Part shown: piece by piece, positions 2,469 through 21,046 of the stretch
Layout: the number at the start of each line of letters is the position of its first letter
How positions within the stretch are numbered: the first letter of the stretch is position 1
Source of the DNA: an uncultured Verrucomicrobiae bacterium
GTDB lineage: Bacteria > Verrucomicrobiota > Verrucomicrobiia > Chthoniobacterales > Chthoniobacteraceae
Reading direction: 5' to 3'
NCBI GenBank assembly: GCA_963769025.1
Contig: CAVYKI010000003.1
Span: 640,001-704,000, forward strand
DNA length: 64,000 nucleotides
Program-made: the position numbers and the translations under genes
The notes under the pieces: generated by a model
Told to the model about the DNA's origin: nothing
Database searches by the model: none
Seen by the model: the letters and a program-made list of their open reading frames with translations, nothing else

Positions 2469-3324
2469 ATGGCGCAACCGGACAATTTCCTCCACGAACT
2501 CACCGGCTCGATGTCGCAGGGCGCGGCGGGCAATCCGACCGTGGCGATGATCGAGGCGGCGTTTGCGCACCACGGGCTGCACTGGCGTTACATTAACATG
2601 GAGGTGACGCCGGAAGACCTCGGCGCAGCTGTGCGTGGCGCGAAGGCGATGGGCTTTCGCGGGTTCAATTGCAGCCTGCCGCACAAGGTCACGGTGATCC
2701 CGCACCTCGACGGGCTCGGCGAATCCGCGGCGGTGATGGGCGCGGTGAATTGCGTGGTGCGCCGCGGCGAAAAATTCATCGGCGAGAATACCGACGGGAA
2801 GGGTTTCCTGAAATCGCTGGAGGCGGCGATCGATCCGAAAGGGAAGTCGGTCGTGCTCTTCGGCGCGGGCGGCGCGGCGCGCGCGATCGCGGTGGAACTC
2901 GGCCTCGCGGGCACCAAGACGGATCACCATCGTGAACCGCTCCGAGACGCGCGGCGCGGAACTGGTCACACTTTTGCGTGACCGGCTGAAGCTCGACACC
3001 GAACTGGTCGTGTGGACCGGGGACTATGCGGTGCCGGCGGGAACGGACATCGTCATCAACGGCACGGCGATCGGCCTTTACGCGCCCGAGGCGCGGCTCG
3101 CGCTGGACCTGAATTCGCTCAAGCCCGGCATGGTCGTGGCGGACGTGGTCTTCAGCCCGGTCCGCACACGATTCCTCGACGACGCCGCAGCGCGCGGCTG
3201 CCGTGCGATCGACGGGCTGGGCATGCTCGTGAACCAGGGCATCGTAGGCATGCAATACTGGACGGGCATCACTCCCGACGCGGACGTGATGCGCCGCGCG
3301 CTCGAATCCGCAATGGGTGTATGA
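2469..3324 (+). CDS. Shikimate dehydrogenase-family protein (AroE-like, divergent substrate site); frameshift near 2920
   Basis: GFNCSLPHK, GAVNC, GENTDGKGF, GAGGAARA, NR, DGLGMLVNQG. The N-terminal SxS motif is absent. Confidence 0.85.
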
Positions 3325-4811: not shown

Positions 4812-4815
4812 TCCG

Positions 4816-6150: not shown

Positions 6151-6194
6151 CGCCACGACGCTGCGCACCGTGGCGGGCGCGGGAAAAGCGCGTC

Positions 6195-7196
6195 TCAGGC
6201 CCGGCCCGGTTGCGTCACTCCGTTCACGACATTTTCCAGCGGCTCGCCGCGCACGGCCGCGAGTGCGATGCGGGCGGAGGTCGCGCGCATTTCGAGTTTC
6301 GATTCCACGCTGCAGAACGCGGCGTGGCAGGTGACGATGAGATTCGGCGCGGCGGCTTCCTCCGTGGTCTTCAGCGGCTCATCCTCGACCACGTCCAGGC
6401 CGGCTCCGGCGATCCGTCCCTCGCGCAGCGCGGCGAGGATGGCGGTCTTTTTGATCACCGCCCCGCGCGCCGTGTTCACCACGAATGCGCCCGGCTTCAT
6501 CAGCGCCAGTTCGCGCTCCGCGATCAGGTGGCGCGTCTCGTCCGTCAGCGGGCAATGGAGCGACAGCACGTCGGACGTCGCGAGCAGTGTGTCGAGCGTC
6601 CGCACGCGCGTGAGGCCCACGGCCTTGTCCGCGCCATTCGGGAGATACGGATCGTGGAAGACGACCTTGAATCCCAGCGCCTTTGCGCGCAGCGCCGCCG
6701 CGGTGCCGATGCGACCGAGCCCGACGACGCCGAACGTCAGCTCGCGCAGCCGCCGAAGCCTTGGCTCCACGCGGATGACCCAGCCGAGCTGCTTTGCCTC
6801 GCGGTCCAGCGGGAAAAGCTGGCGGCACAGCGCCATCGTCAGCGCGATGGCGTGGTCCGCGACCTCCTCGGTGCCGTAGTCCGGCACGTTGCACACCGCG
6901 ATGCCGCGCGCGCGCGCCGCGGCGATGTCCACGGAGTCAAAGCCCACGCCGTTCCGGATGAGCGCGCGGCAATTCCACAGCCGCGCGATGCCCGCCGAGG
7001 TGATAGGCGTGTTGTGCCACACGATCAGCGCATCCGCCCCGCAGATTTCGTCCGTGAAATCCGCATCGCTCCCGCACAGGTAGCGCCGGACTTCCGCGGC
7101 TTCGCCGATCACCGCCCGCTCCGCCGCGGATTCCGGATCGCCGAGCGGCGACTTGGCCCAGTCAATGATTCCGACGAGCGGCTTCTGCGAGGTCAT
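6195..7196 (-). CDS. D-isomer-specific 2-hydroxyacid dehydrogenase (CtBP-like)
   Basis: GVGFDSVD, NVPDYGTEEVADH, GLGRIG, LHCPL, NTARG, LDVVEDEP. Confidence 0.92.
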   Translation of the reverse strand: MTSQKPLVGIIDWAKSPLGDPESAAERAVIGEAAEVRRYLCGSDADFTDEICGADALIVWHNTPITSAGIARLWNCRALIRNGVGFDSVDIAAARARGIAVCNVPDYGTEEVADHAIALTMALCRQLFPLDREAKQLGWVIRVEPRLRRLRELTFGVVGLGRIGTAAALRAKALGFKVVFHDPYLPNGADKAVGLTRVRTLDTLLATSDVLSLHCPLTDETRHLIAERELALMKPGAFVVNTARGAVIKKTAILAALREGRIAGAGLDVVEDEPLKTTEEAAAPNLIVTCHAAFCSVESKLEMRATSARIALAAVRGEPLENVVNGVTQPGRA

Positions 7197-7470
7197 GGGT
7201 TTTGGGAATGGGGCTGCGAGGGCAGGCAGGGGCATCGGGCGACCCTCGTACCCGTCGTGAGACGATAGAAAAAGAATTCTTTCGCCCCGCTCGTGAAGTC
7301 GATGCCGTCCGCGCCGGGCTTGGGATTTTCCGGCATCGGGTCCTTGCAGGGGAATTCGTAGCGATAGCCGTCGAGCGCGGCGGCGACCTTTTTCAAATCC
7401 TCGGCCCACGCACCGGGGCGGCGAGCAAGGCGGCGGCGAAGGTGAGGCGAATGACGGGGAGGCGGAGTCG
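7193..7470 (-). pseudogene. Fragment of a secreted hypothetical protein
   Basis: Signal-like LPVIRLTFAAALLAAP (frameshift) AWA-EDLKKVAAALDGYRYEFPCKDPMPENPKPGAD, then rapid degeneration. Confidence 0.4.
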
Positions 7471-7489
7471 GCTCTCGGCAGGGGAAGGT

Positions 7490-7861
7490 TCAGTGCGGCG
7501 ATCCGAATTTCAACTTCCCGCTGGCTTCTCCGCGGCACCACTCAGCGGGCTTGCGGGGATCTCCACGTGTTCCGGTAACGTCGTAGTTGCCCTCCTCGAC
7601 ATCCGCCGCAAACACCGCCGGCTTGCGTCGCGTCGCGGCCGGGCTTTTCAGGAACCCAAAGCCGCGTCTCGCATCGTATGCCGTCTGCGGTGCGACGCGC
7701 GTGTAGCCCGGCTGCGCCTTGCCCGGGCTGAAATCAAGCTTCCATTCGGCGGCTTCCACCGCCGCGCAGGTGATGAGGAATGCACCGGTGATGACCAAGC
7801 CGCGTTGCAGCCGCCGTCCGGAGGTGAGGAAGGGTCGGGATGTCACTCGTGTTCGCAGCAA
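7490..7861 (-). pseudogene. Truncated N-terminal domain of a rhamnogalacturonan acetylesterase-like (RhgT/YxiM) secreted protein
   Basis: Signal peptide followed by WKLDFSPG..PGYTRV....YDARRGFGF...FAADVEEGNYDVT. Similarity stops at ~7576 and no GDSL domain follows. Confidence 0.6.
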
Positions 7862-7882
7862 TTGTTTTTTGCCTGCCGTCGC

Positions 7883-8504
7883 CTACAGCTCCGCGATCTT
7901 CACGTTCCGATACTCGCACTTCATCTCGACGCCGCCGTGGATCTGCAGTCCGAGCGGGGCCGCGCCGGAAAATTTCGCATCGGTGTACTCCGGATGCCTT
8001 CTTTCCATTGATCCAGCACGTGAAAGTGTCGCCCTTGGCCTGGATTCGGAAAGTGTTCCACTCGCCCTCGGGTTTCATGAGCGTCTTCGCTTCCTTGGCC
8101 TGGCCGGCCTCGGGATATCTGGCTTTGCCGCCCGTGTAGAAGGATCCCGACATGTCCACCCGCAGGCTGCCCGAAACGCCGAGCTGGAGCTGAATCTTCG
8201 GATTCCGCATCTCGAGGCCGGTATCCACCCCGCGGTCGGTCGTGGCCTTCCAGCGCACGTCGAACTCGATGACGAAGTCCTTGTACTCTTTCTCGGTCCA
8301 GAGGTAGTTGCCCTTCTTCGCCGCGTCGTTCTCGCCGATGAGGACGCCATCCTCGACGCGCCAGAATGCCTTCGAGTCCGCGGCCTTGAAGCCGGCGAGA
8401 TCCTTGCCATTGAAAAGCGGTGCGAGCTTCGGCTCGTCAGCAGGACTGGCGACTGTGGCTGCGAGGGAAACGATCAGGGCGAGAGAGAGGGGGCGAAGGT
8501 TCAT
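7883..8504 (-). CDS. DUF1080 (3-keto-disaccharide hydrolase family) secreted protein; frameshift near 7985
   Basis: LFNGKDLAGF, WRVEDGVLIG, EYKDFVIEFD, GEWNTFRI; after the shift, PLGLQIHGG...EYRNVKIAEL*. Confidence 0.88.
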
Positions 8505-8617
8505 GCGAAGTACACTTCCGCTTCCCACAGCTCGGGAGAAGCTCATTTTCACCCAATATCAAATCGCCGCGAAGAGCGGCGTTTCGCCGGCAGCGCACTG
8601 CGTCGGCTTCACGGATC

Positions 8618-10096
8618 TCAGGTGCCGCAAAAGGTGCGGCAGGCCGGAGTGCCTGGAGGCGGCGGGTTCAGCAGTTCGGCGGGCTGGCCGGTTTCGTCGT
8701 AGGGTTTGGACAGCGCGGCATGGAGGCGTTCCAGCGGTGCGAGGTCGTTCGTGTTGGCGGCGGCGAGGGCGGCTTCCACTTCGTGATTGCGGGGAATCAC
8801 CGCGGGGTTGTGCGCGTTCATGAGCGCGAGCACTTCGTTCCAAGGCTGTGGCTGACGGGCGAGGCGCGCGGCCCAGCTTTGCTGCCATGCGGCGAACGCG
8901 GCGTCCGCAGGAAGATCGGGCGCGGCGGTGGCGGGCGGGCGCAGATTGCGGAAGGTGTGGGTGTAGTCGGCGCGGGCTTCGTGCATCGCGCGCAGGAGTT
9001 CCTCGGCGAGGGCACCGTCGTCCGCTTCCTCGGTGAAAAGGCCGAGCTTTCCGCGCATCGCAGCGAGCCAGTGGCGGCGATAGCGGCCCTCGAAGGACTC
9101 GAGCGCCTCGTTCGCGCGGGCCACGGCGGTTTCCGGATCGGGATGCAGGATCGGCAGCAGCGCCTCGGCGAGGCGGGCGAGATTCCACGCGGCGATTTGC
9201 GGCTGCTGCGCGAAGGCGTACCGGCCGTAGCGATCGATGGAGCTGAACACGGTCGCCGGGTCGTAGGCATCGACGAACGCGCAGGGGCCGTAGTCGATCG
9301 TCTCGCCGGAGAGCGCCATGTTGTCGGTGTTCATCACGCCGTGCACGAAGCCGACGCGCATCCATTGCGCGATGAGCGAGGCCTGGCTTTCGAGCGCTGC
9401 GTCGAGGAGCGCGAGTGCCGGGTGTTCGGAATCCGCGCGGTCGGGAAAGTGGCGTCGGAGCGTGTGGTCGGCGAGCACGCGCAGGGACTCGATGTCGCCG
9501 AGCGCGGCGAAGAATTCGAACGTGCCGACGCGGATGTGGCTGGCGGCGACGCGGGTGAGGATCGCGCCGGGGAGCGTCTGCTCGCGGAAGACCGGTTCGC
9601 CGGTGGCGGCCACGGCGAGGCTGCGCGTGGTCGGGATGCCGAGCGCGTGCATGGCCTCGCTGATGAGATATTCGCGCAGCATCGGGCCGAGGGCCGCCCG
9701 GCCGTCGCCGCGGCGCGAATAGGGCGTCGGGCCCGCGCCTTTCAACTGGATGTCGAAGCGATCACCCGAGGGCGTCACGTGTTCACCGAGCAGGATGGCG
9801 CGGCCGTCGCCGAGGCGCGTGAGGTTCCCGTACTGGTGCCCGGCGTAGGCCTGCGCGATGGGTTCGGCTCCGGGGAAAATTTCATTCCCGGTGAAGGAGG
9901 CAGCCGCGTCCGGGCCGTCGAAGGCCGCGGGGTCGAGCCCGAGCGCTCGGGCGAGCGGACGGTTGAAAATGACGAGTCGCGGCGCGGCGACCGGCGTCGG
10001 GTTCACCCGCGTGTGGAATGCCTGCGGCAGGCGTGCGTAGGAATTGTCGAAGCGCCAGCCGGCGTCGGCGGAGACAGGTGCGGAGGTCGTGGACAT
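8618..10096 (-). CDS. selO: Protein adenylyltransferase SelO (YdiU)
   Basis: YAGHQYG, LGDGRA, QLKGAGPTPYSRRGDGRA, GFVHGVMNTDN, IDYGP and C-terminal TFCGT. Confidence 0.97.
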   Translation of the reverse strand: MSTTSAPVSADAGWRFDNSYARLPQAFHTRVNPTPVAAPRLVIFNRPLARALGLDPAAFDGPDAAASFTGNEIFPGAEPIAQAYAGHQYGNLTRLGDGRAILLGEHVTPSGDRFDIQLKGAGPTPYSRRGDGRAALGPMLREYLISEAMHALGIPTTRSLAVAATGEPVFREQTLPGAILTRVAASHIRVGTFEFFAALGDIESLRVLADHTLRRHFPDRADSEHPALALLDAALESQASLIAQWMRVGFVHGVMNTDNMALSGETIDYGPCAFVDAYDPATVFSSIDRYGRYAFAQQPQIAAWNLARLAEALLPILHPDPETAVARANEALESFEGRYRRHWLAAMRGKLGLFTEEADDGALAEELLRAMHEARADYTHTFRNLRPPATAAPDLPADAAFAAWQQSWAARLARQPQPWNEVLALMNAHNPAVIPRNHEVEAALAAANTNDLAPLERLHAALSKPYDETGQPAELLNPPPPGTPACRTFCGT

Positions 10097-10287
10097 GGAA
10101 GCGAGCGGGCCAACCAATCATGGATTCGGCGGAAAGACAGCCGCGGCGTTCGGGGAAGCCATTTTCTGGGGGGGCGGAGAGAACGGCACCTTCATGCCTC
10201 CGCTGAGTCTGTCCCCAGAAACAAGAGCGCGCTCCTCCCGTGTGCGGGCCTTGCCTTCCGTCGCCGGAGACGGTGACATCGCCCGCC

Positions 10288-11055
10288 ATGCAACTGAACC
10301 TCGATGGACAGAAGGTCGCCGTCATCGGCGCGGGGCGCGGCATCGGCCGCGCGATTGCCGAGGGCTTCGTGGCGGAGCGGTGCGAGGTGTGGACGTTCGA
10401 CCGCGACCCGGATGCGGCGCCGTTCGGCCATGCGAACGTCACCGGCGACGTGACGCGCTACGAGGAGGTGCGCGCATTTGCCGAGCGCACCGGCGAGGTG
10501 GATCACGTCGTGTTTTCGGTCGGCGCCGGCTCGGGGAAATTCGGGTTCCCATTTTGGAACCTGGAACCCGCGGACTGGGCGCGCGTGCTGGAGATCAACC
10601 TCATCGGCGCGGTGAACACGGCGCATGCCTTCGCGCCGAAGCTCATTGCGCGCGGCAAGGGCTCGATGCTGTTTCTCGTCTCCGTCGCGGGCCAGATCGG
10701 TTCGCAGACCGACCCGCCGTACAGCGCGGCAAAGGCGGGCCTCATCAATTTCACGCAGTGCGCGGCGAAGGATCTCGCGCCGCACGGCATCCGCGTGAAT
10801 GCGCTCTCGCCGGGCATGGTGAAGACGGACCTGAACCAAGCCGTCTGGCAGGCCGGGCAGGCGAATCTCCCACCATCCGCGCGGCAGGATTACGCAGTCT
10901 GGGCCGAGGAAAAAATCCGCAAGGTGTCACCGCTCGGACGCTGGCAGACGCCGCCGGAATTCGCCGCGATGGCCGTTTTCCTCGCCTCCGATCACGCGAA
11001 AAACATCACCGGCCAGACCCTCAATATCGACGGCGGCCAGGTGATGCACGCCTAG
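10288..11055 (+). CDS. Short-chain dehydrogenase/reductase (SDR)
   Basis: GAGRGIG, YSAAK, NALSPG, ITGQTLNIDGG. Confidence 0.95.
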   Translation: MQLNLDGQKVAVIGAGRGIGRAIAEGFVAERCEVWTFDRDPDAAPFGHANVTGDVTRYEEVRAFAERTGEVDHVVFSVGAGSGKFGFPFWNLEPADWARVLEINLIGAVNTAHAFAPKLIARGKGSMLFLVSVAGQIGSQTDPPYSAAKAGLINFTQCAAKDLAPHGIRVNALSPGMVKTDLNQAVWQAGQANLPPSARQDYAVWAEEKIRKVSPLGRWQTPPEFAAMAVFLASDHAKNITGQTLNIDGGQVMHA

Positions 11056-11074
11056 CGGATTGGACCGCTTTTTT
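11054..11074 (+). terminator. Putative intrinsic terminator after the SDR
   Basis: AGCGG-attgga-CCGCT hairpin followed by TTTTT at the SDR stop codon. The stem is short. Confidence 0.5.
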
Positions 11075-11140
11075 GGGTTGCATGAACATGACTGGTTTTA
11101 GAGCCTTGGCGCCGCAGGAACTTAACCGGGAAACCAAACC

Positions 11141-12859
11141 ATGAAAACTTCGCGCATCCTCCTTGCATCCATCCACCTCTTTGCGGCGTTCGCCGTCATC
11201 GCCCACGCCGATGACGGTTTTATTTTTTCCACCACGGGGGATGGCCTGAGATGGCGGGCGCCTGTCACGTGGCCCTCGGTTCACCTGCGCATCACCGGCG
11301 ACAAGATTGCTCCTTTCGAGCAAACCGTCGGTTCATCGAGCCAGTTTTCGGTGCCTCTCAGCGGACCGGGCGGGCCAGCCCTGCCGGACGGGGTTTACAA
11401 GTGGGAAGTGGTCGGGCAGCCGGTGATGAGCCCGGCATTGGCCCAGAGCCTCTCCGCCGCCCGAAAAGCGGGCAACGACGCCGCAGCCGCGAGCATTCTG
11501 GCTGCCGCAAACCTGCCCCAAGGCGTCCGGACCTCCGGGGCGTTCAGTGTCCTCAACGGGAAGCTCGTGCCAGCCGACGCGGAGGAGCCTGCCGCCCAGC
11601 AAGCCGCGGCGCCCGCCGGGAATCTTGCCCAAAGCGGTCCGCTCATTCCTCTCTCCGGCGTCGTAGCGCCGGATTCGGTGACCAATGACGACCTGATCGT
11701 GATTGGCAGCCTCGCGGTCGGTCAAGATGCCATAAATGGCGAAAACTTCGGATTCGACACTTTCCGCCTGAAGGAAAACAACCTGCGCATCCATTTTGAC
11801 GACACGAGCAACACCGCCTCGTTTCCCGCCAACGACTGGAGAATTGTCATCAACGACACCACCAACGGAGGTGGCAGTTTTTTCGCCATCGAGGACTCCA
11901 CTGCCAACCGGACGCCCTTTAAAATCGAGGCGGGCGCCAAAACCAATGCCCTCGTCGTCGACGACGCCAGTCGTGTGGGCATTGGCACTGGCACCCCTGT
12001 GGTGAACCTGCACATCGTCACTGGCAATACTCCGACCGCACGGCTGGATCAGGACGGCTCCTCCGGGTTTACGCCGCAGGTTTGGGACATGGCTGGCAAT
12101 GAAACCAATTTCTTCATCCGTGACGTCACCAACGGTTCGAGGCTGCCCTTCCGGATCCGCCCCAACGCGCCGACGAGCAGCATCGATATCGCCGGTAGCG
12201 GCAACGTGGGCTTGGGAACGTCCGCTCCGGCGACAAGACTCCACCTGCAGTCGACTAACACTGACATCGCACTCCGCATCCAGCAGACCGCTGGGACCGT
12301 TCCTTCGAGTTGGGATTTTACCAACAACTCAGCAACGGGACGCCTGAATATCACCGACGACACGACATCCATGCGGATCCCCTTCAAGATGGGCCCCGGT
12401 GCGCCCAATAATCTGTTTCGGATCGGCATTCCCGCCGTGAACACCGTGGAAGTGAACGGCACCCTGACCGTGAATGGGACCTTCAACAACCTGTCGAGCC
12501 GTGAGTTCAAGAATATCGTGCCGGGCGTCGATAGCGCTTCGGTTTTGGAAAAAATCGCCAGCCTGCCGCTTTTCACATGGTCGTACAAGGATAGCAATGG
12601 GGAGCGCCACTTCGGCCCCGTGGCCGAGGATTTCTATGCGCATTTCCAGCTCGGGACGGATGAGAAACACATCTCGCCAAACGACATGGCGGGAGTCGCG
12701 CTGGGCGCGATCAAGGGCCTCCATGAGCAGCTCCGGGAGCGGGATGCCCAGATCAAGACCCTGCGCCAGAAGAGCGACACGCTCGAACAGCAGATGAAGG
12801 CGCTGACCGAAGCGGTCGAAGCATTGAAGGTGGGAAGCCCTACGAAAGCCTCGCCCTAA
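11141..12859 (+). CDS. Secreted tail-fibre-like protein with three beta-rich repeats, C-terminal peptidase S74 (intramolecular chaperone) domain and coiled coil
   Basis: Signal peptide ending AVIAHA. Three W..F/L.I.D.T...PF.I/M repeats, two followed by VGI/LGT..P. S74 motifs SSREFK, LP..TWSYK, HFGPVAEDF, D..GVAL.AIK.L, then a heptad coiled coil. Confidence 0.85.
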   Translation: MKTSRILLASIHLFAAFAVIAHADDGFIFSTTGDGLRWRAPVTWPSVHLRITGDKIAPFEQTVGSSSQFSVPLSGPGGPALPDGVYKWEVVGQPVMSPALAQSLSAARKAGNDAAAASILAAANLPQGVRTSGAFSVLNGKLVPADAEEPAAQQAAAPAGNLAQSGPLIPLSGVVAPDSVTNDDLIVIGSLAVGQDAINGENFGFDTFRLKENNLRIHFDDTSNTASFPANDWRIVINDTTNGGGSFFAIEDSTANRTPFKIEAGAKTNALVVDDASRVGIGTGTPVVNLHIVTGNTPTARLDQDGSSGFTPQVWDMAGNETNFFIRDVTNGSRLPFRIRPNAPTSSIDIAGSGNVGLGTSAPATRLHLQSTNTDIALRIQQTAGTVPSSWDFTNNSATGRLNITDDTTSMRIPFKMGPGAPNNLFRIGIPAVNTVEVNGTLTVNGTFNNLSSREFKNIVPGVDSASVLEKIASLPLFTWSYKDSNGERHFGPVAEDFYAHFQLGTDEKHISPNDMAGVALGAIKGLHEQLRERDAQIKTLRQKSDTLEQQMKALTEAVEALKVGSPTKASP

Positions 12860-12875: not shown

Positions 12876-15800
12876 ATGATCGCGCATGGAAAGTGGGAAT
12901 GCGGCGTGCATTTGCTGACGGGCGTCGCGCTCGCCTGGCTGGGAGCGGGACAGCTGGGCGCGCAGAACGCGGTCGATCCGATCCTCGGCTCGATCCGGCA
13001 GCTCGAGGATAAGAGCGATCCCAAGTGCCATGCCACCGCATCGCGGCTGGAGAACTTCATGTTCGGAACGCCGCTCACCGACGCGGTGCGTTTCCAGAAA
13101 AACGGGTATCTGAAGGAGTTCATCCGCGGCGCATGGGCACGGGCTTCGGAGCTTGCCCGCGAGCAGAATGCGACGGAAATCGACGCGGCGGTGATGACGA
13201 AGGCCTTCGCCTCCGAACCGGAAGTCGTGGAGGAAAAAGGCGAGTTCGTGGTCAAGACCTCGCCGGCTCCGATCCGCATTGGTTCGCGTGACAAGCGCCA
13301 GTATTCCAGCGTGGCTTACGCGCTTCGCGCCATCCTGGCGGTCCAGCAGGAGGCTTCGCTGAGCGAAGGCCGCCTGTCGCTCGTGCCGCTCAAGCCGGAG
13401 GCCGTCGCGGCGCTCAAGGAGCGGGCCGACATCTATGTGCTCGCTTTGCTCAATCTCGCCGATCGCCATGCGCGAAAGGAAGTTCGCTTTGAGATCGGCC
13501 CCGGGGACATGGAGCAAGGCTGGAAGGAACTCGGCCTGACGGGCACTCCCGCGCCAAAGTCCGGCCCGTCGAAGACCGGCAAGGATTCGCTGCTGCGGGC
13601 CGTCATCACCCAGAAAGTCGCATCCTTTGCGGCTTACAATCAGGTTTCCAACGAGCTGTTTGTGCGGAACCTCCAGGTCTATTTTGCCAAGCGGCGGTGG
13701 CCGGAAACGGCGGAGCAGGGAAAGCAGGTGAAGGATTTTTTTGTAAATGCAGTCGTGGGTTTTGGCGCTGCACTCTACGAAGCGGCCCAGGAGCGTGCGC
13801 GGACCCGGGGCGACACCCTGGTGAGGGAGGAGGATGTCTTCGACGCAGTGCAGCGTTTCACGCCCTATAGCGTCAACGAATACGAGGATGTGGTCTTTTT
13901 CCCACGCTTGGAAAAGGAGCGGCTGACGATCGAGGCGTACGACTTGGATTCATTCCGGGACAGCGGGTTCCACTGGACCTATCTCGGTTTCGCGCTCGAT
14001 GACATGGGAGGCAAACTGGCGATCGATGCGGATCCCTTCGCGGCTGAATTGCTCTCCGAGTCCATCGCGCAGTTCGGAGTGCTGCTGCTTCGGATGGCCG
14101 GCCAGGTCGCGATCGATGCCTCGCAGGAGAGGCTCTCGATTTCCGCCTTTGAGTCCGCGATGACCGAGATGCAGCGGCGCATCGTTCTGCACGGCGAGGC
14201 GCCGCTCCGGAAACCCAAGGAAGTGGCAATCGCGTCTTCTGCGACGCCGCGCGAATCGTCCACGGGGGCCAGGTTTTTTTCCGACGTCACGACTGAGGCT
14301 GGGATCCAGTTCGAGCACCGTTCCTCGGATTGGCTCTCGCGTCTCCTGAGAGGCTATCTGACGAAGCCGGACGGGAAAGGAGTCATCACAATCCCGCCGG
14401 CCTTTGGAGGTGCCGGACTTGCCGCCGAGGACATCGACAACGACGGCGACATCGACCTGATCGTTCTCAGCGGAGCCGGCAACCGCCTTTACCTGAACGA
14501 TGGAAAGGGCGTCTTCACCGATGCGACCGCGACCTCAGGGCTCGACTGGCGCCGTCCGGACGGTCACCCCGGCGAGCCGCGCCAGCCGATCATTGCCGAC
14601 TTTGACAATGACGGCATCCAGGACGTGCTCATCACCTACGTGGACGATGCCCACCGGCTTTATATGGGGCTTGGGAATGGCCGGTTCAAGGACGTCACCG
14701 ATGGGTGCGCCCTCGGCGGCCAAGGCGTGGTGGGCGGCCCGGTCACCGTGCTCGACGTGGACAAGGATGGCCTGCTGGATATCTACCTCGGTTACTTCGG
14801 CGATTATCCCCGCGGGGTGCTGCCGACGCTCGCGCGGCGCAACCGGAATGGCTTGCCGAACAAATTGTTCCGAAATCTCGGGGGCATGCGCTTTGAAGAC
14901 ATTTCCGAAAAAAGCGGGACGGCCGACCGGGGCTGGGCGCAGTCGGTCGGGCATACCGACTTCGATGGGGACGGATGGCAGGACATCATCGTGGGAAATG
15001 ATTTCGGGGTGAACGTGTACTACCGGAACCGGCACGACGGCACCTTTGAGGATGTCGCCGAAAAAATGGGTGCCTCCAAGCCGTCCTTTACCATGGGAAT
15101 CGGCATCGCGGATCTGAACCGGGATGGCATCCCTGACATCTACATCGCCAACATCGTGACGATGAACAAGGATCAGAAATATGTCCTGCCCACCGAGGAC
15201 ACGGTCCAGACGTTCGACCTGCGCAAGCTGGCGAACATGCGCGTGGTGGAAGCCAACGACCTCTTCATCTCGACGCGCGGCGCAAGCGGGCTTCCCCGTT
15301 ACGAACTCTCGAATCTGGTGGACCGGGGCTATTCCTCCACGGGGTGGTCGTGGGGCGCGGATTTCTTCGATTTCGACCACGATGGCGACGAGGATCTCTA
15401 CGTGCTCAACGGCATGAACGACTTCAACGTCTATGGCCGGGAAAACCCCTATTACACGGACCCGCACAGCGATCAGAAAGTAGCGGTCACCTTCCCGCCC
15501 AGTCAGCGGGAAAAGAATGTGCTTTTCATCAACGACGCCGGCCGGTTCCAGGACGCGAGCGATCAGAGCGGGCTCGACATCCTTTCCAACTCCAGGAGCG
15601 CCGCCTACTTCGACTTTGACGGGGATGGCGACCTCGATATCGCCATCAACAACTATCACGGACCGGCGGTCCTGTTTCGCAATAACACCAATTCCAGAGC
15701 CGGTTCATGGCTGAGCATCCGCCTCACCGGCGACCCCAAGCGGGGAGTCTCCCGCGACGCGATCGGCGCCACCGTCCTCGTCAGCGGCGAAAAACTGAAG

Positions 15801-16013
15801 AACATCTGGCGCGAAGTCCACACGACCACCGGCTATCTCACCGGGCACCCGAAGGAGCAGCATTTTGGCGTCGGCCACGAGAAGGCGCTCTCCGCCGAAG
15901 TGCGCTGGCCCGACGGTCAGGTGCAGCGCTTTGCCGACGTGAAACCCGGGATGCGCTACCGGTTGGTTCAAGGCCAGAAACTCGAGGCCTCGACACCGGA
16001 CGATCCGCGTTGA
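12876..16013 (+). CDS. Secreted protein: four putative histone folds + FG-GAP beta-propeller + ASPIC/UnbV domain (CRTAC1-like)
   Basis: Hydrophobic N-terminus. Four alpha1-L1-alpha2-L2-alpha3-like units in aa ~52-435. Seven DxDxDG-type Ca-binding loops (DIDNDGDID, DFDNDGIQD, DVDKDGLLD, DFDGDGWQD, DLNRDGIPD, DFDHDGDED, DFDGDGDLD). UnbV motifs DAIGATV, HFGVG and VRWPDG. Confidence 0.85.
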   Translation: MIAHGKWECGVHLLTGVALAWLGAGQLGAQNAVDPILGSIRQLEDKSDPKCHATASRLENFMFGTPLTDAVRFQKNGYLKEFIRGAWARASELAREQNATEIDAAVMTKAFASEPEVVEEKGEFVVKTSPAPIRIGSRDKRQYSSVAYALRAILAVQQEASLSEGRLSLVPLKPEAVAALKERADIYVLALLNLADRHARKEVRFEIGPGDMEQGWKELGLTGTPAPKSGPSKTGKDSLLRAVITQKVASFAAYNQVSNELFVRNLQVYFAKRRWPETAEQGKQVKDFFVNAVVGFGAALYEAAQERARTRGDTLVREEDVFDAVQRFTPYSVNEYEDVVFFPRLEKERLTIEAYDLDSFRDSGFHWTYLGFALDDMGGKLAIDADPFAAELLSESIAQFGVLLLRMAGQVAIDASQERLSISAFESAMTEMQRRIVLHGEAPLRKPKEVAIASSATPRESSTGARFFSDVTTEAGIQFEHRSSDWLSRLLRGYLTKPDGKGVITIPPAFGGAGLAAEDIDNDGDIDLIVLSGAGNRLYLNDGKGVFTDATATSGLDWRRPDGHPGEPRQPIIADFDNDGIQDVLITYVDDAHRLYMGLGNGRFKDVTDGCALGGQGVVGGPVTVLDVDKDGLLDIYLGYFGDYPRGVLPTLARRNRNGLPNKLFRNLGGMRFEDISEKSGTADRGWAQSVGHTDFDGDGWQDIIVGNDFGVNVYYRNRHDGTFEDVAEKMGASKPSFTMGIGIADLNRDGIPDIYIANIVTMNKDQKYVLPTEDTVQTFDLRKLANMRVVEANDLFISTRGASGLPRYELSNLVDRGYSSTGWSWGADFFDFDHDGDEDLYVLNGMNDFNVYGRENPYYTDPHSDQKVAVTFPPSQREKNVLFINDAGRFQDASDQSGLDILSNSRSAAYFDFDGDGDLDIAINNYHGPAVLFRNNTNSRAGSWLSIRLTGDPKRGVSRDAIGATVLVSGEKLKNIWREVHTTTGYLTGHPKEQHFGVGHEKALSAEVRWPDGQVQRFADVKPGMRYRLVQGQKLEASTPDDPR

Positions 16014-18103: not shown

Positions 18104-18202
18104 CGTTCCTCCCGGAGCCGGCGCAACGCGGGGGCGGACTCACGCGATGGACGAAGTTTTTAATTCCCGCGCGGTGGCAAAATGGTGCATTGGAGAGGAC
18201 CG

Positions 18203-19363
18203 ATGCGGATTTTCGTCCCCACAGAAACCGACCCCTCCGAACGCCGGGTGGCGATCGTCCCGGTCACCGTGCCGAAACTCGTCGCGCTGGGCGCGCAGGT
18301 GGAAATCGAAGCGGGGCTTGGCGAGCGCATCCATTTTTCCGACGAAGAGTACCGCCTGGCAGGTGCCACTGTCGTCACCGACCGCCGGCAGGGCCTCGCT
18401 TCCGCGGACATGGTGCTGCGGCTCGGCAAGCCCGCAGCCACCGAGCTCTCGTCGCTCAGGCGAGGCTGCCTCCACATCAGCTTTCTCGATCCATTCACGG
18501 ATGTGGAAATCGTGCGAAGTCTCGCTGCGGCCGGCGCGAGCGCGATTTGCATGGAGATGATCCCGCGCTCGACGATCGCGCAGAAGATGGACGCGCTGAG
18601 TTCGCAGGCGAGCCTCGGCGGCTACGTGGCGGTGCTGCTCGGGGCGAACCGGCTCGACCGCATTTTCCCGATGATGATGACGCCCGCCGGGACGATCCCG
18701 CCGGCGAAGGTTTTCATCATCGGCGTCGGCGTCGCCGGCCTCCAGGCCATCGCCACCGCGAAGCGGCTCGGCGCGGTGGTCGAGGCGTTCGACACACGGC
18801 CCGTCGTCGAGGAGCAGGTGAAATCGCTCGGCGCGAAATTTGTGAAAGTGGACCTCGGCGACACTGGGCAGACGGCGCAGGGCTACGCGAAGGAACTGAC
18901 GCCCGAGCAGCTCGCGAAACAGCGCGAGGTCATGGAGCTGCGTTGCGCGCAGGCGGACCTCGTCATCACCACCGCGCAGGTCTTCGGCCGCAAGGCGCCG
19001 GTCATTTTGACAACCGCCGTGGTGGAGAAAATGAAGCCCGGCAGCATCGTCGTGGACATGGCGGTGGAGACGGGCGGCAACGTCGAGTGCTCGCGCCTCG
19101 ACGAGGAAGTCGTCGTGAAAGGCGTGCGGGTGCTCGGCTACCGGAACCTCGCAGGGCGCGTCGCCCGCGCGGCGAGCTCGATGTATTCCAGCAATCTCGC
19201 GAACCTCGTGGAGCACTTCTGGGATCGTGAGGCGAAAAGCTTCCGCCTCGATCCGGCGAACGAAATCCTGAAGGACTGCCTCGTCACGCACGGCGGCGCC
19301 ATCGTGAACGAACGCCTCCGCGCACTCTCCAGTTCACAGCCCGCAGCCGCCATTTCCCCATGA
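18203..19363 (+). CDS. pntA: NAD(P) transhydrogenase alpha subunit, part 1 (PntAA)
   Basis: ERRVAIVP, IPRSTIAQKMDALSSQA, PMMMTPAGT, GVGVAGLQAIATAKRLGA, DMAVETGGN. Confidence 0.95.
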   Translation: MRIFVPTETDPSERRVAIVPVTVPKLVALGAQVEIEAGLGERIHFSDEEYRLAGATVVTDRRQGLASADMVLRLGKPAATELSSLRRGCLHISFLDPFTDVEIVRSLAAAGASAICMEMIPRSTIAQKMDALSSQASLGGYVAVLLGANRLDRIFPMMMTPAGTIPPAKVFIIGVGVAGLQAIATAKRLGAVVEAFDTRPVVEEQVKSLGAKFVKVDLGDTGQTAQGYAKELTPEQLAKQREVMELRCAQADLVITTAQVFGRKAPVILTTAVVEKMKPGSIVVDMAVETGGNVECSRLDEEVVVKGVRVLGYRNLAGRVARAASSMYSSNLANLVEHFWDREAKSFRLDPANEILKDCLVTHGGAIVNERLRALSSSQPAAAISP

Positions 19364-19665
19364 ACTCGCTCATGTCCGGCCTCTACGTCTTCGCCCTCTC
19401 GGCGTTTCTCGGCTACCTCGTGATCTCGCGCGTGCCGCCGCTGCTGCACACGCCGCTGATGTCCGCGACGAACGCGATCTCCGGCATCTCGCTCGTCGGC
19501 TCGCTCGTCACCGCAGGCGGAGACCACGGCGTGCTCAGCACGGTGCTCGGCGTGACGGCGGTCGCTGCCGCGACGATCAATGTCGTGGGCGGATTCTGGA
19601 TCACCGAGCGGATGCTTCGGTTCTTCCGGCGAAAGGAAACGCCACCGGCGAAGCAGAAGGAGTAG
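19360..19665 (+). CDS. pntA: NAD(P) transhydrogenase alpha subunit, part 2 (PntAB)
   Basis: VPPLLHTPLMSATNAISG and INVVGGF..TERML..F. Confidence 0.95.
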   Translation: MNSLMSGLYVFALSAFLGYLVISRVPPLLHTPLMSATNAISGISLVGSLVTAGGDHGVLSTVLGVTAVAAATINVVGGFWITERMLRFFRRKETPPAKQKE

Positions 19666-19672
19666 GCGCGCC

Positions 19673-21046
19673 ATGCACGATTACTTCGTCGAGTTCAGCT
19701 ACCTGTTCGCGTCGGTCTTCTTCATCATCGGGCTGAAGAGCCTGAGCCACCCAGACACCGCGCGCCGCGGGATGCACCTCGCGGAGATCGGCATGCTGCT
19801 GGCGATCATCGGCACGCTGCTGCACAAGGACATCATCTCCTACGAGTGGATCGTCGTCGGCCTGGTCATCGGCGGAACCATCGGCGGAATTCTCGCGCAG
19901 CGCGTGGCCATGACTGCGCTGCCGCAGCTCACCGCGCTCTCGCACGCCTTCGGCGCGCTCGCGGCCACGCTCGTCGGCATCGCCGAGTACGCCCGTCACG
20001 GCGCGGACATCGGGGCGCCGAAGATGATCGCCATCGGCATCGAGGTGCTGCTCGGAGCGCTGACGACCACCGGGAGCGTCATCGCGGCCGCGAAGCTGCA
20101 CGAGCTCATGCGCGGCCAGCCGATCACTTTCAAAGGCCAGAACTATGTGAACCTCGGCATCCTCGCAGTCGCGCTCGGCGCGCTCGTGGTCCTGCTCTTC
20201 AGTCCCGGCGCGGCGTTCGCCTTTTACCTCATGCTGGCGCTCGCGCTGATCTTCGGGCTCATGCTCGTGCTGCCCATTGCCGCCGCGGACATGCCGGTCG
20301 TCATGTCGCTGCTGAACGCCTACGCCGGCCTCGCCGCGACCGCGACCGGCTTCGCCATTTCAAACAACGTGCTGATCATCGCGGGCACGCTCAACGGCTT
20401 CTCCGGCTTCATCCTCTCCGTGCTCATGTGCCGCGCGATGAACCGCTCCATCACCAACGTCATCTTCGGCGCATTCGGAAGCGCCACCGGCGCCGCGACC
20501 GCATTCGCAGGCGGCGAGGCCCGCGAAATCAATCTCGAGGACGCCGCGACGCAGCTCGCGTACGCGCGGCAGGTCGTCTTCGTCCCCGGCTACGGCATGG
20601 CCACCGCGCAGGCGCAGCACGTCGTCCGCGAGCTGGCGTCCGTTTTGGAAGAGCGCGGCGTGACGGTGAAATATGCGATCCATCCCGTCGCCGGCCGCAT
20701 GCCGGGCCACATGAACGTGCTGCTCGCCGAGGCCGACGTGCCATATTCGCAGCTCTACGAACTCGAGCAGATCAACTCCGACTTTCCCAACACCGATGTC
20801 GCCATGGTCATCGGCGCCAACGACGTGGTGAACCCCGACGCCCGCGACAATCCCGGCAGCCCCATCGCCGGCATGCCGATCCTCGACGTGGATCGCGCGC
20901 GCTCCGTCATCGTGCTCAAGCGCGGAAAGGGAAAGGGCTTCGCCGGAATCGAGAACCCGCTCTTTTTCAAGCCGAACACCGGGATGCTCTACGGCGACGC
21001 GAAGGGCTCGCTCAGCAAGCTCGTGCAAGCTGTCGAGCAGGCGTAG
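19673..21046 (+). CDS. pntB: NAD(P) transhydrogenase beta subunit
   Basis: ADMPVVMSLLN, AMNRS, VPGYGMA.AQAQH, HPVAGRMPGHMNVLLAEA, GANDVVNP. Confidence 0.97.
   Translation: MHDYFVEFSYLFASVFFIIGLKSLSHPDTARRGMHLAEIGMLLAIIGTLLHKDIISYEWIVVGLVIGGTIGGILAQRVAMTALPQLTALSHAFGALAATLVGIAEYARHGADIGAPKMIAIGIEVLLGALTTTGSVIAAAKLHELMRGQPITFKGQNYVNLGILAVALGALVVLLFSPGAAFAFYLMLALALIFGLMLVLPIAAADMPVVMSLLNAYAGLAATATGFAISNNVLIIAGTLNGFSGFILSVLMCRAMNRSITNVIFGAFGSATGAATAFAGGEAREINLEDAATQLAYARQVVFVPGYGMATAQAQHVVRELASVLEERGVTVKYAIHPVAGRMPGHMNVLLAEADVPYSQLYELEQINSDFPNTDVAMVIGANDVVNPDARDNPGSPIAGMPILDVDRARSVIVLKRGKGKGFAGIENPLFFKPNTGMLYGDAKGSLSKLVQAVEQA

What the first reader, a model, noticed from the sequence alone, without database searches (positions are those of the whole stretch)
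13029..14180. Four tandem histone-fold-like units in a secreted FG-GAP beta-propeller protein
Seen: the ~430-aa N-terminal part of ORF 12876..16013 has four copies of a short helix, a loop, a ~29-residue helix ending in A..(.)A, a loop and a short helix. The units are HF1 (aa ~52-112) TDAVRFQKNGYLKEFIRGAWARASELAREQNATEIDAAVMTKAF; HF2 (~147-219) KPEAVAALKERADIYVLALLNLADRHARKEVRFEIGPGDMEQG; HF3 (~258-328) VKDFFVNAVVGFGAALYEAAQERARTRGDTLVREEDVFDAV; HF4 (~365-435) DPFAAELLSESIAQFGVLLLRMAGQVAIDASQERLSISAFESA. Known: archaeal HMf-type histones read roughly S.DA..AL...LEE....IA..A...A.HAGRKT(V/I)K.EDI..A. Inference: this is a single-chain pseudo-tetramer of histone folds attached to an integrin-like Ca-binding propeller plus UnbV domain, and exported. 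Only HF2 keeps the R-x6-D clamp (RFEIGPGD), so DNA binding may be degenerate or repurposed (scaffold, extracellular DNA binding, host-chromatin mimicry). Routine annotation would call it only 'CRTAC1 family'. I recall prokaryotic-histone surveys listing a beta-propeller-fused class, but I cannot verify that here and know of no assigned function.
Basis: partly seen in the sequence, partly recalled or inferred. Interest (0 to 1): 0.92.

Follow-up and report, generated by a model that had tools for sequence, protein, structure and literature searches.

The report
Exported four-histone-fold domain on propeller
A secreted bacterial protein really does carry four histone-type folds, paired two by two, in front of a calcium-binding propeller, but the module is acidic, so it probably binds proteins rather than DNA, and its job is still unknown.

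Summary
The domain is a tandem duplication (hhalign 96.7%, E 3.8e-10; reversed or shuffled controls 0.6% or less). AlphaFold2 models are confident (pLDDT 92-94, pTM 0.91). The N-half alone matches only histone pairs in the PDB (TM 0.5-0.68). Sequence-profile hits to NF-YB, NC2-beta and H2B are consistent but sub-threshold. So it is two double histone folds in one chain; tetramer-like geometry could not be tested.

The family (231 species genomes) has signal peptides and is almost always fused to a seven-motif FG-GAP propeller plus UnbV domain. The histone-fold domain is acidic and lacks conserved basic loop residues, so DNA binding is unlikely. One cysteine (C51) is invariant (80 of 80 genomes).

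Neighbours are conserved: an S74 trimeric fibre (present here) and, in other genomes, a thioredoxin/DsbD_N protein and a giant adhesin.

I read it as a protein-docking platform of an exported surface system; that function is inferred.

Schwab et al. 2024 list a "Beta-propeller" histone category in supplementary data only, so this is probably a new member of a catalogued, uncharacterised kind. Interest is moderate.

The parts
11141..12859 (+). Upstream gene for an exported trimeric-fibre-like protein (572 aa). It has a C-terminal Peptidase_S74 intramolecular-chaperone domain. It is the conserved neighbour of the histone-fold/propeller gene.
   Evidence: Pfam Peptidase_S74 at aa 452-502, E 1.3e-6. 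phmmer hit to PDB 8ond_A, the Bdellovibrio fibre Bd2133, E 3.6e-5. tblastn relatives lie within 7 kb of the homologous gene in 37 of 80 genome loci. A 16-nt gap separates it from the next gene and no terminator-like site lies between them.
12876..16013 (+). The whole ORF (1045 aa plus stop). Its order is signal peptide, four-histone-fold domain, tether, FG-GAP propeller, UnbV domain.
   Evidence: Full-length relatives of about 1000-1100 aa share the architecture: 69 of 79 ORFs in 78 genome loci are 950 aa or longer.
12876..12962 (+). Probable Sec signal peptide (aa 1-29). An alternative GTG start at 12906 would match the start of the 85%-identical homologue P0002.
   Evidence: 55 of 65 homologues have a hydrophobic segment before the domain. 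The sequence was read. No dedicated signal-peptide predictor was available.
13026..13028 (+). Codon of Cys51, the only conserved cysteine of the protein. It sits in the loop just before helix alpha1 of fold 1.
   Evidence: Cys in 97% of 70 aligned rows, and no other column reaches 30% Cys. Cys is at the aligned position in 80 of 80 genome loci.
13029..13214 (+). Histone fold 1 (aa 52-113). Helices: alpha1 52-62, alpha2 69-96, alpha3 104-113.
   Evidence: AF2 secondary structure. The family profile aligns this part with H2B chains, E 0.17-1.4.
13221..13307 (+). Insert 1 (aa 116-144): three short beta strands and a helix between folds 1 and 2.
13317..13532 (+). Histone fold 2 (aa 148-219). In the model it pairs with fold 1 as a double histone fold.
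   Evidence: The N-half model and its Foldseek hits.
13533..13640 (+). Poorly conserved linker (aa 220-238), then a helix (aa 239-255) that is the counterpart of the helix at aa 34-46.
   Evidence: Half-to-half alignment.
13650..13859 (+). Histone fold 3 (aa 259-328). This unit is the most histone-like in sequence.
   Evidence: The family profile aligns it with NC2-beta and NF-YB over alpha1 to alpha3, E 0.024-0.7. Secondary structure.
13866..13958 (+). Insert 2 (aa 331-361): beta strands and a helix. It is strongly conserved and rich in acidic and aromatic residues.
   Evidence: mean top-residue frequency 0.56-0.77.
13968..14198 (+). Histone fold 4 (aa 365-441).
   Evidence: In homologues this part gives weak CBFD_NFYB_HMF and Cdc6_lid hits.
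14199..14315 (+). Low-confidence tether (aa 442-480) between the histone-fold domain and the propeller.
   Evidence: pLDDT 49-63 for the last 30 residues of the model.
14316..16010 (+). CRTAC1-type part: FG-GAP repeats with seven Dx[DN]x[DN]Gxx[DE] motifs (aa 519, 575, 627, 695, 746, 832, 913) and an UnbV_ASPIC domain (aa 962-1028; nt 15759..15959).
   Evidence: Pfam FG-GAP_3 8.7e-44, FG-GAP 3.7e-15, UnbV_ASPIC 5e-14. Motif count. phmmer hit to human CRTAC1, 9etn_A, E 9.2e-17.

Best explanation
Shown or modelled:
- The N-terminal 415 residues of the mature protein are two tandem double histone folds, four folds in all. They arose by duplication of a two-fold module of about 190 residues. They are fused through a flexible tether to a seven-motif Ca-binding FG-GAP propeller with an UnbV domain.
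- The protein is exported.
- The histone-fold domain is acidic and has no conserved basic residues in its loops.

Inferred:
- It does not wrap or bind DNA.
- It serves as a rigid protein-protein docking platform, as histone folds do in TAFs, NF-Y, SPT3 and Sos.
- It holds the propeller in an envelope or cell-surface assembly together with co-encoded exported partners. Here the partner is the S74-type trimeric fibre encoded 16 nt upstream. In most other genomes there are also a thioredoxin/DsbD_N oxidoreductase and a giant Ig-repeat adhesin.
- The conserved alpha1/L1 faces, the two conserved inserts and the invariant Cys51 are the likely contact or functional sites.
For: Fold:
- AF2 pLDDT 92.4, pTM 0.91 for the whole domain, and 94.4, 0.91 for the N-half alone.
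- Foldseek with the N-half: 15 hits at E of 1e-3 or less. All 39 listed rows are histone-fold entries. Examples: 7dlx_B TM 0.54/0.61, 9cvt_D 0.58/0.68, 1wwi 0.51/0.66 at rmsd 4.4.
- Foldseek with the whole domain: 33 of 39 listed PDB rows are histone pairs. 12 of the first 15 BFVD rows carry histone names.
- Family profile against PDB sequences: 22 of 24 hits are histone-fold proteins.
- Language-model neighbours are archaeal clusters in which 27-58% of members carry CBFD_NFYB_HMF, scores 0.90-0.92.

Duplication.

Export: 55 of 65 homologues have a hydrophobic N-terminal segment. The partner proteins also have such N-termini.

Not a DNA binder:
- Net charge of the domain is -8 here. The median is -10 over 69 rows and -6 over 79 genomes, 65 of them negative.
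- The L1 and L2 loops are not enriched in K/R.

Fusion is the rule: 69 of 79 ORFs are 950 aa or longer, 7 of the rest are cut by contig ends, and the search for shorter proteins found mostly partial proteins on short contigs.

Context:
- Fibre relatives lie near the gene in 37 of 80 loci.
- A Thioredox_DsbH plus DsbD_N gene is present in 50 of 80 loci, usually directly downstream, and in 39 of the 57 loci with at least 2.5 kb of downstream sequence. Its CxxC and C-x4-C are invariant in 28 of 28.
- A DUF7933/Big/OmpA giant protein is present in 30 loci.
- Cys51 is invariant in 80 of 80 loci.
Against:
- Synteny is partial. This window has the fibre but neither the thioredoxin-like gene nor the giant adhesin within 64 kb.
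- The conserved surfaces could instead contact the protein's own propeller.
- All structural evidence is predicted. Foldseek E-values are modest (about 1e-4 to 1e-3) and rmsd is 4-7 A, partly because of the inserts.
- No Pfam histone family reaches its cut-off on this protein or its units. In homologues AAA+ lid families score as well as or better than histone families: Cdc6_lid in 4 of 26 (best 2.4e-6), LonB lid in 5 of 26, CBFD_NFYB_HMF in 3 of 26 (best 0.0029).
- 14 of 79 genomes have a neutral or basic domain, up to +10, and one search has a row at +18. A DNA or polyanion contact in some members is therefore not excluded.
- The signal peptide was judged with a hydropathy rule, not a trained predictor.
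Confidence: 0.5

Rival explanations
1. Redox-centred module. The functional heart of the domain is the invariant lone Cys51. It forms a mixed disulfide with, or is kept reduced by, the co-encoded exported thioredoxin/DsbD_N protein. The histone folds are the frame that presents it. This can coexist with the best explanation.
For: Cys51 is the only conserved Cys in about 1000 residues and is present in 80 of 80 genomes. The gene directly downstream in most loci has an invariant CxxC in a Thioredox_DsbH domain and an invariant C-x4-C in a DsbD_N domain, 28 of 28.
Against: The window itself lacks that gene within 64 kb, as do the Verrucomicrobial loci, yet the Cys is kept. No interaction or redox state was tested. 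A single conserved Cys could also be structural, a metal ligand or an intermolecular disulfide.
Confidence: 0.2
2. Intramolecular cap. The four-fold platform docks on its own propeller, for example over the Ca-binding face, and gates or stabilises it. It has no external partner.
For: The fusion is nearly universal. Many invariant charged residues lie on alpha1/L1 and on the inserts, as expected for a fixed interface.
Against: A tether of about 35 residues with low confidence and low conservation separates the two parts. Both the whole domain and its N-half fold confidently without the propeller. The full-length model could not be run, because the second prediction job went to the N-half.
Confidence: 0.2
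3. Extracellular histone. The exported domain binds extracellular DNA (biofilm matrix) or mimics host chromatin proteins.
For: It has the histone fold. The closest solved matches are H2A-H2B pairs. Many carriers are marine, surface-associated bacteria by record title. A minority of family members have a basic domain.
Against: The domain is acidic in this protein (-8) and in 65 of 79 genomes. The loops that contact DNA in histones are not enriched in K/R, and the best-conserved one, L1 of fold 1, has none. H2A-H2B tops the lists largely because single-chain H2A-H2B constructs are the commonest two-fold chains in the PDB.
Confidence: 0.07
4. Not histone folds. The units are AAA+ lid-like helix-strand-helix bundles or generic helical repeats, and the histone resemblance is superficial.
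For: Per-member Pfam scans give LonB_AAA-LID (5 of 26) and Cdc6_lid (4 of 26, best E 2.4e-6) at least as often as CBFD_NFYB_HMF (3 of 26). The PDB profile search also lists Cdc6.
Against: Lid hits cover only the alpha2-end/L2/alpha3 stretch. That stretch is the motif the two folds share according to Alva et al. 2007 (PMC1847821, abstract read). The models align over two whole folds with histone pairs at TM 0.5-0.68, and no AAA+ chain appears among the listed Foldseek rows.
Confidence: 0.05

Closest known systems
'Beta-propeller' histone category of Schwab et al. 2024 (Nat Commun 15:7950, PMC11390915)
   Same: It is a class of prokaryotic histone-fold proteins named for a beta-propeller. The label occurs 56 times in the source-data archive, and each of two accessions checked occurs twice, so I infer about 28 proteins. 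Their monomer pLDDT values are 85-88. The survey drew on InterPro's histone-fold superfamily (section 13 read).
   Different: I could not show that those proteins are this family. The archive gives accessions and labels only. The table describing the categories is a PDF I could not read. Neither the main text nor the preprint mentions 'propeller', so no function, export, synteny or four-fold anatomy is described in any text I could read.
Bacterial and archaeal double histone folds: Thermus thermophilus 1wwi (DUF1931 class), Methanopyrus kandleri HMk 1f1e
   Same: Two histone folds in one chain form an intramolecular handshake pair. The N-half model matches them at TM 0.51/0.66 (1wwi, rmsd 4.4) and 0.45/0.57 (1f1e). 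The DUF1931 class is also described as lacking DNA-binding residues (PMC13088155, passages; preprint of Schwab et al., passages).
   Different: Those are small cytoplasmic proteins of about 150 aa without other domains. Here there are two such pairs in tandem, each with an insert of about 30 residues and a leading helix, behind a signal peptide and fused to a propeller. Sequence identity is 10-16%.
Giant-virus histone doublets and multiplets (Marseilleviridae, Medusavirus)
   Same: Several histone folds in one chain. Matches include Melbournevirus 9cvt_D at TM 0.58/0.68 and a 555-aa Marseillevirus LCMAC101 protein aligned over 512 columns at E 1.6e-6.
   Different: The global fit to the 555-aa protein is poor (TM 0.20-0.24, rmsd 24). 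The viral proteins package DNA. This domain is acidic and exported.
Histone folds used for protein-protein assembly: NF-YB/NC2-beta, TAFs, SPT3 of SAGA, Sos histone domain
   Same: They give the best sequence-profile hits (NC2-beta 0.024; NF-YB 0.1-0.7). Structural matches include two chains labelled I of SAGA entries (which I take, from recall, to be SPT3) and Sos 1q9c. They are precedents for histone folds that act as docking modules.
   Different: All of those are eukaryotic and nuclear or cytosolic. None is exported or fused to an FG-GAP propeller.
CRTAC1/ASPIC family (human cartilage acidic protein 1, PDB 9etn)
   Same: FG-GAP repeats with Dx[DN]xDG-type Ca motifs plus an UnbV_ASPIC domain, and secreted. 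NCBI names 14 of the 120 listed homologues 'CRTAC1 family protein'.
   Different: phmmer matched only the UnbV-side stretch of 9etn (E 9.2e-17). The four-histone-fold N-domain has no counterpart in that match. I recall that the human protein ends in an EGF-like domain instead.
AAA+ ATPase lid (C-domain) helix-strand-helix motif
   Same: Weak Pfam hits to Cdc6_lid and LonB_AAA-LID over alpha2-end/L2/alpha3. Alva et al. 2007 derive the histone fold from this motif by domain swapping (abstract read).
   Different: There is no P-loop ATPase domain. The models show swapped (interleaved) pairs, not closed bundles.

Membership tests
Histone-fold superfamily (fold level) | alpha1 - L1 - long alpha2 (about 28 residues) - L2 - alpha3 | tested here: met
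   The pattern occurs four times in the AF2 model. The alpha2 helices are 28, 28, 32 and 28 residues long, and every L1 and L2 has a beta bridge. The N-half model shows the same pattern.
Histone-fold superfamily (fold level) | Two folds interleave head-to-tail as a handshake pair | tested here: met
   The N-half model aligns over 172-221 columns with single-chain histone pairs, TMq 0.44-0.58 and TMt up to 0.68. This is a predicted structure. The C-half pair is inferred from half-to-half homology and the identical secondary structure.
Pfam histone families (CBFD_NFYB_HMF PF00808, Histone PF00125) | Score at or above the curated gathering cut-off | tested here: not met
   No hit for the protein, the domain or any of the four units at E of 10 or less. 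Among 26 family members, CBFD_NFYB_HMF hits 3 (best E 0.0029) and Histone hits 1 (E 0.12).
DNA-wrapping (nucleosomal, HMf-type) histones | Basic protein with conserved Arg/Lys/Thr in L1/L2 and at the alpha1 ends | tested here: not met
   Net charge is -8 here. The medians are -10 (n=69) and -6 (n=79). K/R fraction is 0.00 in L1 of fold 1, the best-conserved loop, and 0.06-0.23 in the other loops, which are poorly conserved. The fold-2 R-x6-D is not conserved.
DNA-wrapping (nucleosomal, HMf-type) histones | Pairs join through an alpha2/alpha3 four-helix bundle into tetramers and longer superhelices | not testable with these tools
The PDB library is chain-based and holds no single-chain four-fold histone to match. 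The alpha3 helices are among the least conserved elements, 0.26-0.39. pTM 0.91 shows only that the two pairs form one rigid body.
'Beta-propeller' histones (Schwab et al. 2024) | Histone fold plus a beta-propeller domain in one protein, listed under that label | not testable with these tools
   The architecture fits the label.
CRTAC1 / ASPIC-UnbV family | FG-GAP repeat propeller with Ca-binding Dx[DN]xDG-type loops | tested here: met
   FG-GAP_3 148 bits (cut-off 26.9) and FG-GAP 55.9 bits (cut-off 22.1). Seven motifs.
CRTAC1 / ASPIC-UnbV family | C-terminal UnbV_ASPIC domain | tested here: met
   PF07593, 52.4 bits (cut-off 23.4), aa 962-1028. 9etn_A E 9.2e-17.
AAA+ ATPases (lid domain) | Lid follows a P-loop ATPase core, and each unit closes into its own helical bundle | tested here: not met
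   No AAA/P-loop family on the protein. Lid hits cover only about 28 residues. No AAA+ chain appears in the listed Foldseek rows.

The most novel reading that the evidence does not exclude
This would be the first histone-fold assembly that works outside the cytoplasm. It would be an exported single-chain particle of four histone folds that has given up DNA. It would nucleate or anchor a surface fibre/adhesin complex, with its invariant Cys51 acting as a redox switch or covalent attachment point. In most lineages a dedicated thioredoxin/DsbD_N partner would service that cysteine.
Probability: 0.15. Interest if true: 0.75.

Novelty: new member of a known kind. Interest (0 to 1): 0.55.

Why it matters
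Histone folds are treated as cytoplasmic or nuclear DNA- and protein-organising modules. In the passages I read, surveys of bacterial histones describe them as small and typically devoid of other domains (PMC10627809).

This family is different. It has four folds in one chain, sits behind signal peptides, is acidic, and is welded to a Ca-binding propeller. It is found in 231 species genomes, and the record titles name Verrucomicrobiota, Kiritimatiellae, Acidobacteriota, a Planctomycetota member and Alpha-, Beta- and Gammaproteobacteria.

If the domain is confirmed experimentally, it would show the fold reused in the cell envelope. It would also give a handle on the unexplained bacterial CRTAC1/UnbV proteins and on a conserved exported gene cluster (fibre, oxidoreductase, giant adhesin).

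It also shows that routine annotation hides the domain. Only 2 of the 120 listed homologues carry a histone name.

Tried and rejected
Searches and scans that gave little:
- Pfam and NCBIfam on the whole protein gave nothing for aa 1-470.
- Pfam on each unit at E of 10 or less gave only chance-level PCP_red and PPE hits.
- phmmer of the domain against PDB sequences gave one irrelevant hit at E 0.17.
- Rfam found no RNA family in the window.

Calls that failed or had to be changed:
I used the 26-row A2 instead.
- The search for related loci with A2 found no conserved stretch. It was repeated with the closer 12-row A3.
- I looked for the window's other neighbours near homologues: 0 of 80 loci for the seven other non-ABC ORFs tested. 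The ABC ATPase matched in 4 loci, but these are generic ABC similarities.
- I looked in the window for the thioredoxin-like gene, the giant adhesin and the small 155-aa protein, using one representative of each. None was found.
- The search for shorter, stand-alone forms gave 36 hits, mostly 'partial' or on contigs of 1-8 kb. A few sit on long contigs (P0121, 434 aa; P0288, 209 aa) and were not followed up.
I then spent the last job on the N-half, so the contact between the histone-fold domain and the propeller is unmodelled.
- Complex prediction was sent for a homodimer of aa 30-444. The queue was full and then the tool was declared unavailable. Nothing was folded, so oligomeric state and partner binding stay open.
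- Alva & Lupas 2019 is not held.

Literature searches with no result:
- 'histone fold' with 'FG-GAP' gave 1 unrelated paper.
- 'beta-propeller histone' / 'propeller histones' gave 0 occurrences.
- The CRTAC1 searches found nothing on this domain.

Other points:
- A strict motif regex for the Cys loop found it in only 41 of 69 full-length ORFs. The alignment-based count is 80 of 80. The regex was too narrow and my ORF starts were crude.


Full report
**1. What is in the sequence**

ORF 12876..16013 (+) encodes 1045 aa.
- Pfam finds FG-GAP_3 (E 8.7e-44), FG-GAP (3.7e-15) and UnbV_ASPIC (5e-14, aa 962-1028) in the C-terminal 570 residues. It finds nothing in aa 1-470. NCBIfam adds nothing.
- There are seven Dx[DN]x[DN]Gxx[DE] motifs, at aa 519, 575, 627, 695, 746, 832 and 913.
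- The C-terminal part matches human CRTAC1 (9etn_A) at E 9.2e-17.
- The finding's coordinates, 13029..14180, are aa 52-435.

**2. The four units are real and repeated**

A 72-row alignment (A1) gave an AlphaFold2 model of aa 30-470 with pLDDT 92.4 and pTM 0.91.
- Each half of the domain starts with a helix (aa 34-46; 239-255).
- A short helix / loop / 28-32-residue helix / loop / short helix unit follows.
- Next comes an insert of three short strands and a helix.
- A second such unit follows.
- Every L1 and L2 loop carries a one- or two-residue beta bridge.

The profile of the N-half aligns with that of the C-half at 96.7% probability and E 3.8e-10 over 182 columns. Reversed or column-shuffled controls give 0.6% or less. 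The six unit pairs score 38-91% forward and 0.5% or less reversed. The domain is therefore a duplication of a two-unit module, and all four units are related.

**3. They are histone folds, paired as double histone folds**

Four independent lines agree.
- (a) Profile against PDB sequences. A profile of 26 N-domain sequences (A2) returns 24 hits at E of 10 or less. 22 are histone-fold proteins. NC2-beta (0.024) and many NF-YB chains align with unit 3 over alpha1 to alpha3, and H2B chains align with unit 1. The other two hits are Cdc6 and a dynein light chain. None is significant alone.
- (b) Per-member Pfam scans. These give CBFD_NFYB_HMF in 3 of 26 (best 0.0029), Histone in 1, Cdc6_lid in 4 (best 2.4e-6) and LonB_AAA-LID in 5. 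The lid hits cover the alpha2-end/L2/alpha3 stretch. That is the helix-strand-helix motif that Alva et al. 2007 hold to be ancestral to both folds (PMC1847821, abstract read).
- (c) Language-model neighbours. For the domain and for its C-half these are archaeal clusters in which 27-58% of members carry CBFD_NFYB_HMF, scores 0.90-0.92. The tool warns that such scores are leads only.
- (d) Structure comparison of the whole domain. 33 of 39 listed PDB rows are single-chain H2A-H2B constructs or known double histone folds (1wwi, 1f1e, 7n8n, 1q9c). They align over about 180-200 columns with TM 0.49-0.64 on the target. The six others have probability 0.2 or less. In BFVD, 12 of the first 15 rows carry histone names.

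To see which units pair, I modelled aa 30-229 alone (A5, 81 rows).
- It stays confident (pLDDT 94.4, pTM 0.91) with the same helices.
- All 39 listed PDB rows are histone-fold entries, and 15 have E of 1e-3 or less.
- Examples: 7dlx_B TM 0.54/0.61, Melbournevirus 9cvt_D 0.58/0.68, Thermus 1wwi 0.51/0.66 at rmsd 4.4 A.
- Units 1 and 2 therefore form an intramolecular handshake pair.
- Units 3 and 4 do so by inference from homology and identical secondary structure.

Whether the two pairs meet like a histone tetramer could not be tested.
- I had no coordinates.
- No solved chain has four folds.
- A 555-aa viral four-fold candidate aligns locally over 512 columns (E 1.6e-6) but not globally (TM 0.2).

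**4. The family**

The N-domain has 588 or more relatives in the 90%-cluster database and 280 representatives at E of 1e-3 or less.
- Relatives occur in 231 species genomes.
- The 80 best are named, by record title, as Verrucomicrobiota (the closest, 46-48% identity), Kiritimatiellae, Acidobacteriota, a Ca. Anammoxibacter, and Alpha-, Beta- and Gammaproteobacteria.
- The window's own genome was not among them. A verrucomicrobial origin is my inference from the best hits.
- In 78 of the 80 loci my crude ORF caller found the gene. 69 of 79 ORFs are 950 aa or longer, 7 are cut by contig ends, and 3 are internal pieces (L065 split in two, L077).
- A search among shorter proteins gave 36 hits, mostly partial proteins on short contigs.
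- Fusion to the propeller is therefore the rule.
- Of the 120 listed homologues, sources name 14 'CRTAC1 family protein', 2 'enediyne biosynthesis protein E4' and 2 'histone H3/H4'.

**5. Exported, acidic, one cysteine**

- 6 of the 71 homologues in A1 had fewer than 15 residues before the domain and were dropped. Of the remaining 65, 55 have a hydrophobic segment there. Many look like classic Sec signal peptides. This is a hydropathy rule, not a trained predictor.
- The domain's net charge is -8 here. The median is -10 over 69 rows (range -24 to +18) and -6 over 79 genomes, 65 of them negative.
- Conservation is highest in the alpha1 helices, L1 of fold 1 (frequency 0.80, no K/R), alpha2 of fold 4, the loop before fold 1 and insert 2. 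It is lowest in the alpha3 helices and most L2 loops.
- The protein has a single conserved cysteine, C51. It is Cys in 97% of 70 rows and in 80 of 80 genomes.

**6. Context**

In the window:
- The gene follows, after 16 nt and no terminator-like site, a 572-aa exported protein.
- That protein has a Peptidase_S74 chaperone domain and similarity to the Bdellovibrio fibre Bd2133 (8ond_A, E 3.6e-5).
- It is thus an S74-type 'mosaic adhesive trimer'-like fibre in the sense of Caulton et al. (PMC10769870, passages read).
- A terminator-like hairpin lies at the stop codon of the preceding dehydrogenase gene.
- Further neighbours are ordinary: SDR, SelO, 3-keto-disaccharide hydrolase, 2-hydroxyacid dehydrogenases, an epimerase and PntAB. 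They are not conserved near homologues (0 of 80).

Across the 80 loci:
- Fibre relatives occur in 37 by tblastn, or 34 by clustering.
- A gene encoding Thioredox_DsbH, an (alpha/alpha)6-like middle part and DsbD_N is present in 50 loci, usually directly downstream. It is in 39 of the 57 loci with at least 2.5 kb of downstream sequence. Its CxxC and C-x4-C are invariant in 28 of 28.
- A giant DUF7933/Big/cadherin-like protein, in one case with an OmpA-like barrel, occurs in 30 loci.
- A 155-aa exported protein without a family occurs in 15 loci, and an M48 peptidase in 8.
- The window has only the fibre.

**7. Reading**

Shown or modelled:
- Two double histone folds from a duplication.
- Export.
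- Acidity.
- Fusion to a Ca-binding propeller.
- Conserved exported neighbours.

Inferred:
- The domain does not bind DNA.
- It is a docking platform within an envelope or surface assembly.
- The conserved alpha1/L1 faces, the inserts and Cys51 are the working surface.

Rivals are a redox role centred on Cys51, an intramolecular cap on the propeller, extracellular DNA binding, and 'not really histone folds'. They are weighed in their own sections. No binding test could be run.

**8. What is known**

- Schwab et al. 2024 sorted 5823 prokaryotic histone-fold proteins into 17 categories (section 6 read).
- Their source-data archive contains the label 'Beta-propeller' 56 times. Each of two accessions checked occurs twice, so I infer about 28 proteins.
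- The word 'propeller' is absent from the main text and from the preprint.
- The table describing the categories is a PDF I could not read.
- A 2026 review of double histone folds does not mention propellers, FG-GAP or CRTAC1.
- Hocher et al. 2023 describe bacterial histone-fold proteins as typically devoid of other domains (passage).
- My text searches for a description of this architecture found none.
I could not prove that the catalogued proteins are this family.
- I found no account of its four-fold anatomy, export, charge, cysteine or gene neighbourhood in the texts I could read. The unreadable supplements may hold some of it.

**9. Verdict**

- The DNA-related suggestions are unlikely.
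- Novelty: a new member of a known (catalogued but uncharacterised) kind.
- Interest 0.55. It is a genuine oddity for histone-fold biology and a lead into bacterial CRTAC1 proteins, but it is not unknown and has no tested function.

Noticed in passing
window 11141..12859 (+): An exported S74-type fibre gene lies 16 nt upstream and probably forms an operon with the finding's gene. Its central region (aa 178-410) is 40-66% identical to relatives near the homologous gene in other phyla. A Ser-x4-Lys stretch sits where the Pfam S74 match begins (aa 452).
   Followed up: partly
L004:10069-12351 (+) and 49 other loci: The gene downstream of the homologue, usually directly adjacent, encodes Thioredox_DsbH, an epimerase/glycosidase-like (alpha/alpha)6 region and DsbD_N. 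Its CxxC and C-x4-C are invariant, 28 of 28. It is absent from this 64-kb window.
   Followed up: partly
L004:250-6675 (+), L009:1409-6334 (-) and 28 other loci: Giant proteins of 1600-2100 aa lie beside the homologue in 30 loci. They contain DUF7933, DUF11, Big_9/Big_12, He_PIG and cadherin-like repeats, and one has an OmpA-like barrel.
   Followed up: partly
L005:6093-6563 (+), L020:6140-6574 (-) and 13 other loci: An exported protein of about 155 aa with no Pfam family always sits next to the fibre gene. All 15 copies have a hydrophobic N-terminus.
   Followed up: no
window 11705..11752 (+): The window's fibre has alanines where 89% of 28 fibre relatives have a C-x4-C pair. The window is also among the genomes without the adjacent thioredoxin-like gene.
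   Followed up: no
window 12876..12908 (+): The start codon is uncertain. The 85%-identical homologue P0002 starts at the position of a GTG at 12906, which has a purine-rich stretch a few bases upstream. The ATG at 12876 has none.
   Followed up: partly
L065:7346-10232 (+); L077:6935-8704 (+): In a Kiritimatiellae genome the homologue is split into two ORFs. In one Acidobacteriota genome it ends after 589 aa inside the contig. These may be pseudogenes or assembly errors.
   Followed up: no
window 6132..11144 (+ strand ORFs): The long + strand ORFs 6132..7268, 7719..8702, 8420..10276 and 10044..11144 are Arg/Gly-rich shadows of real genes in this G+C-rich DNA. The real genes are 6195..7541 (-) 2-hydroxyacid dehydrogenase, 7734..8552 (-) 3-keto-disaccharide hydrolase, 8618..10117 (-) SelO and 10240..11055 (+) SDR.
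   Followed up: yes
window 3012..6150 and 18182..21046 (+): Ordinary genes: an ABC ATPase and a permease, and transhydrogenase PntA and PntB. No Rfam family was found anywhere in the window.
   Followed up: no
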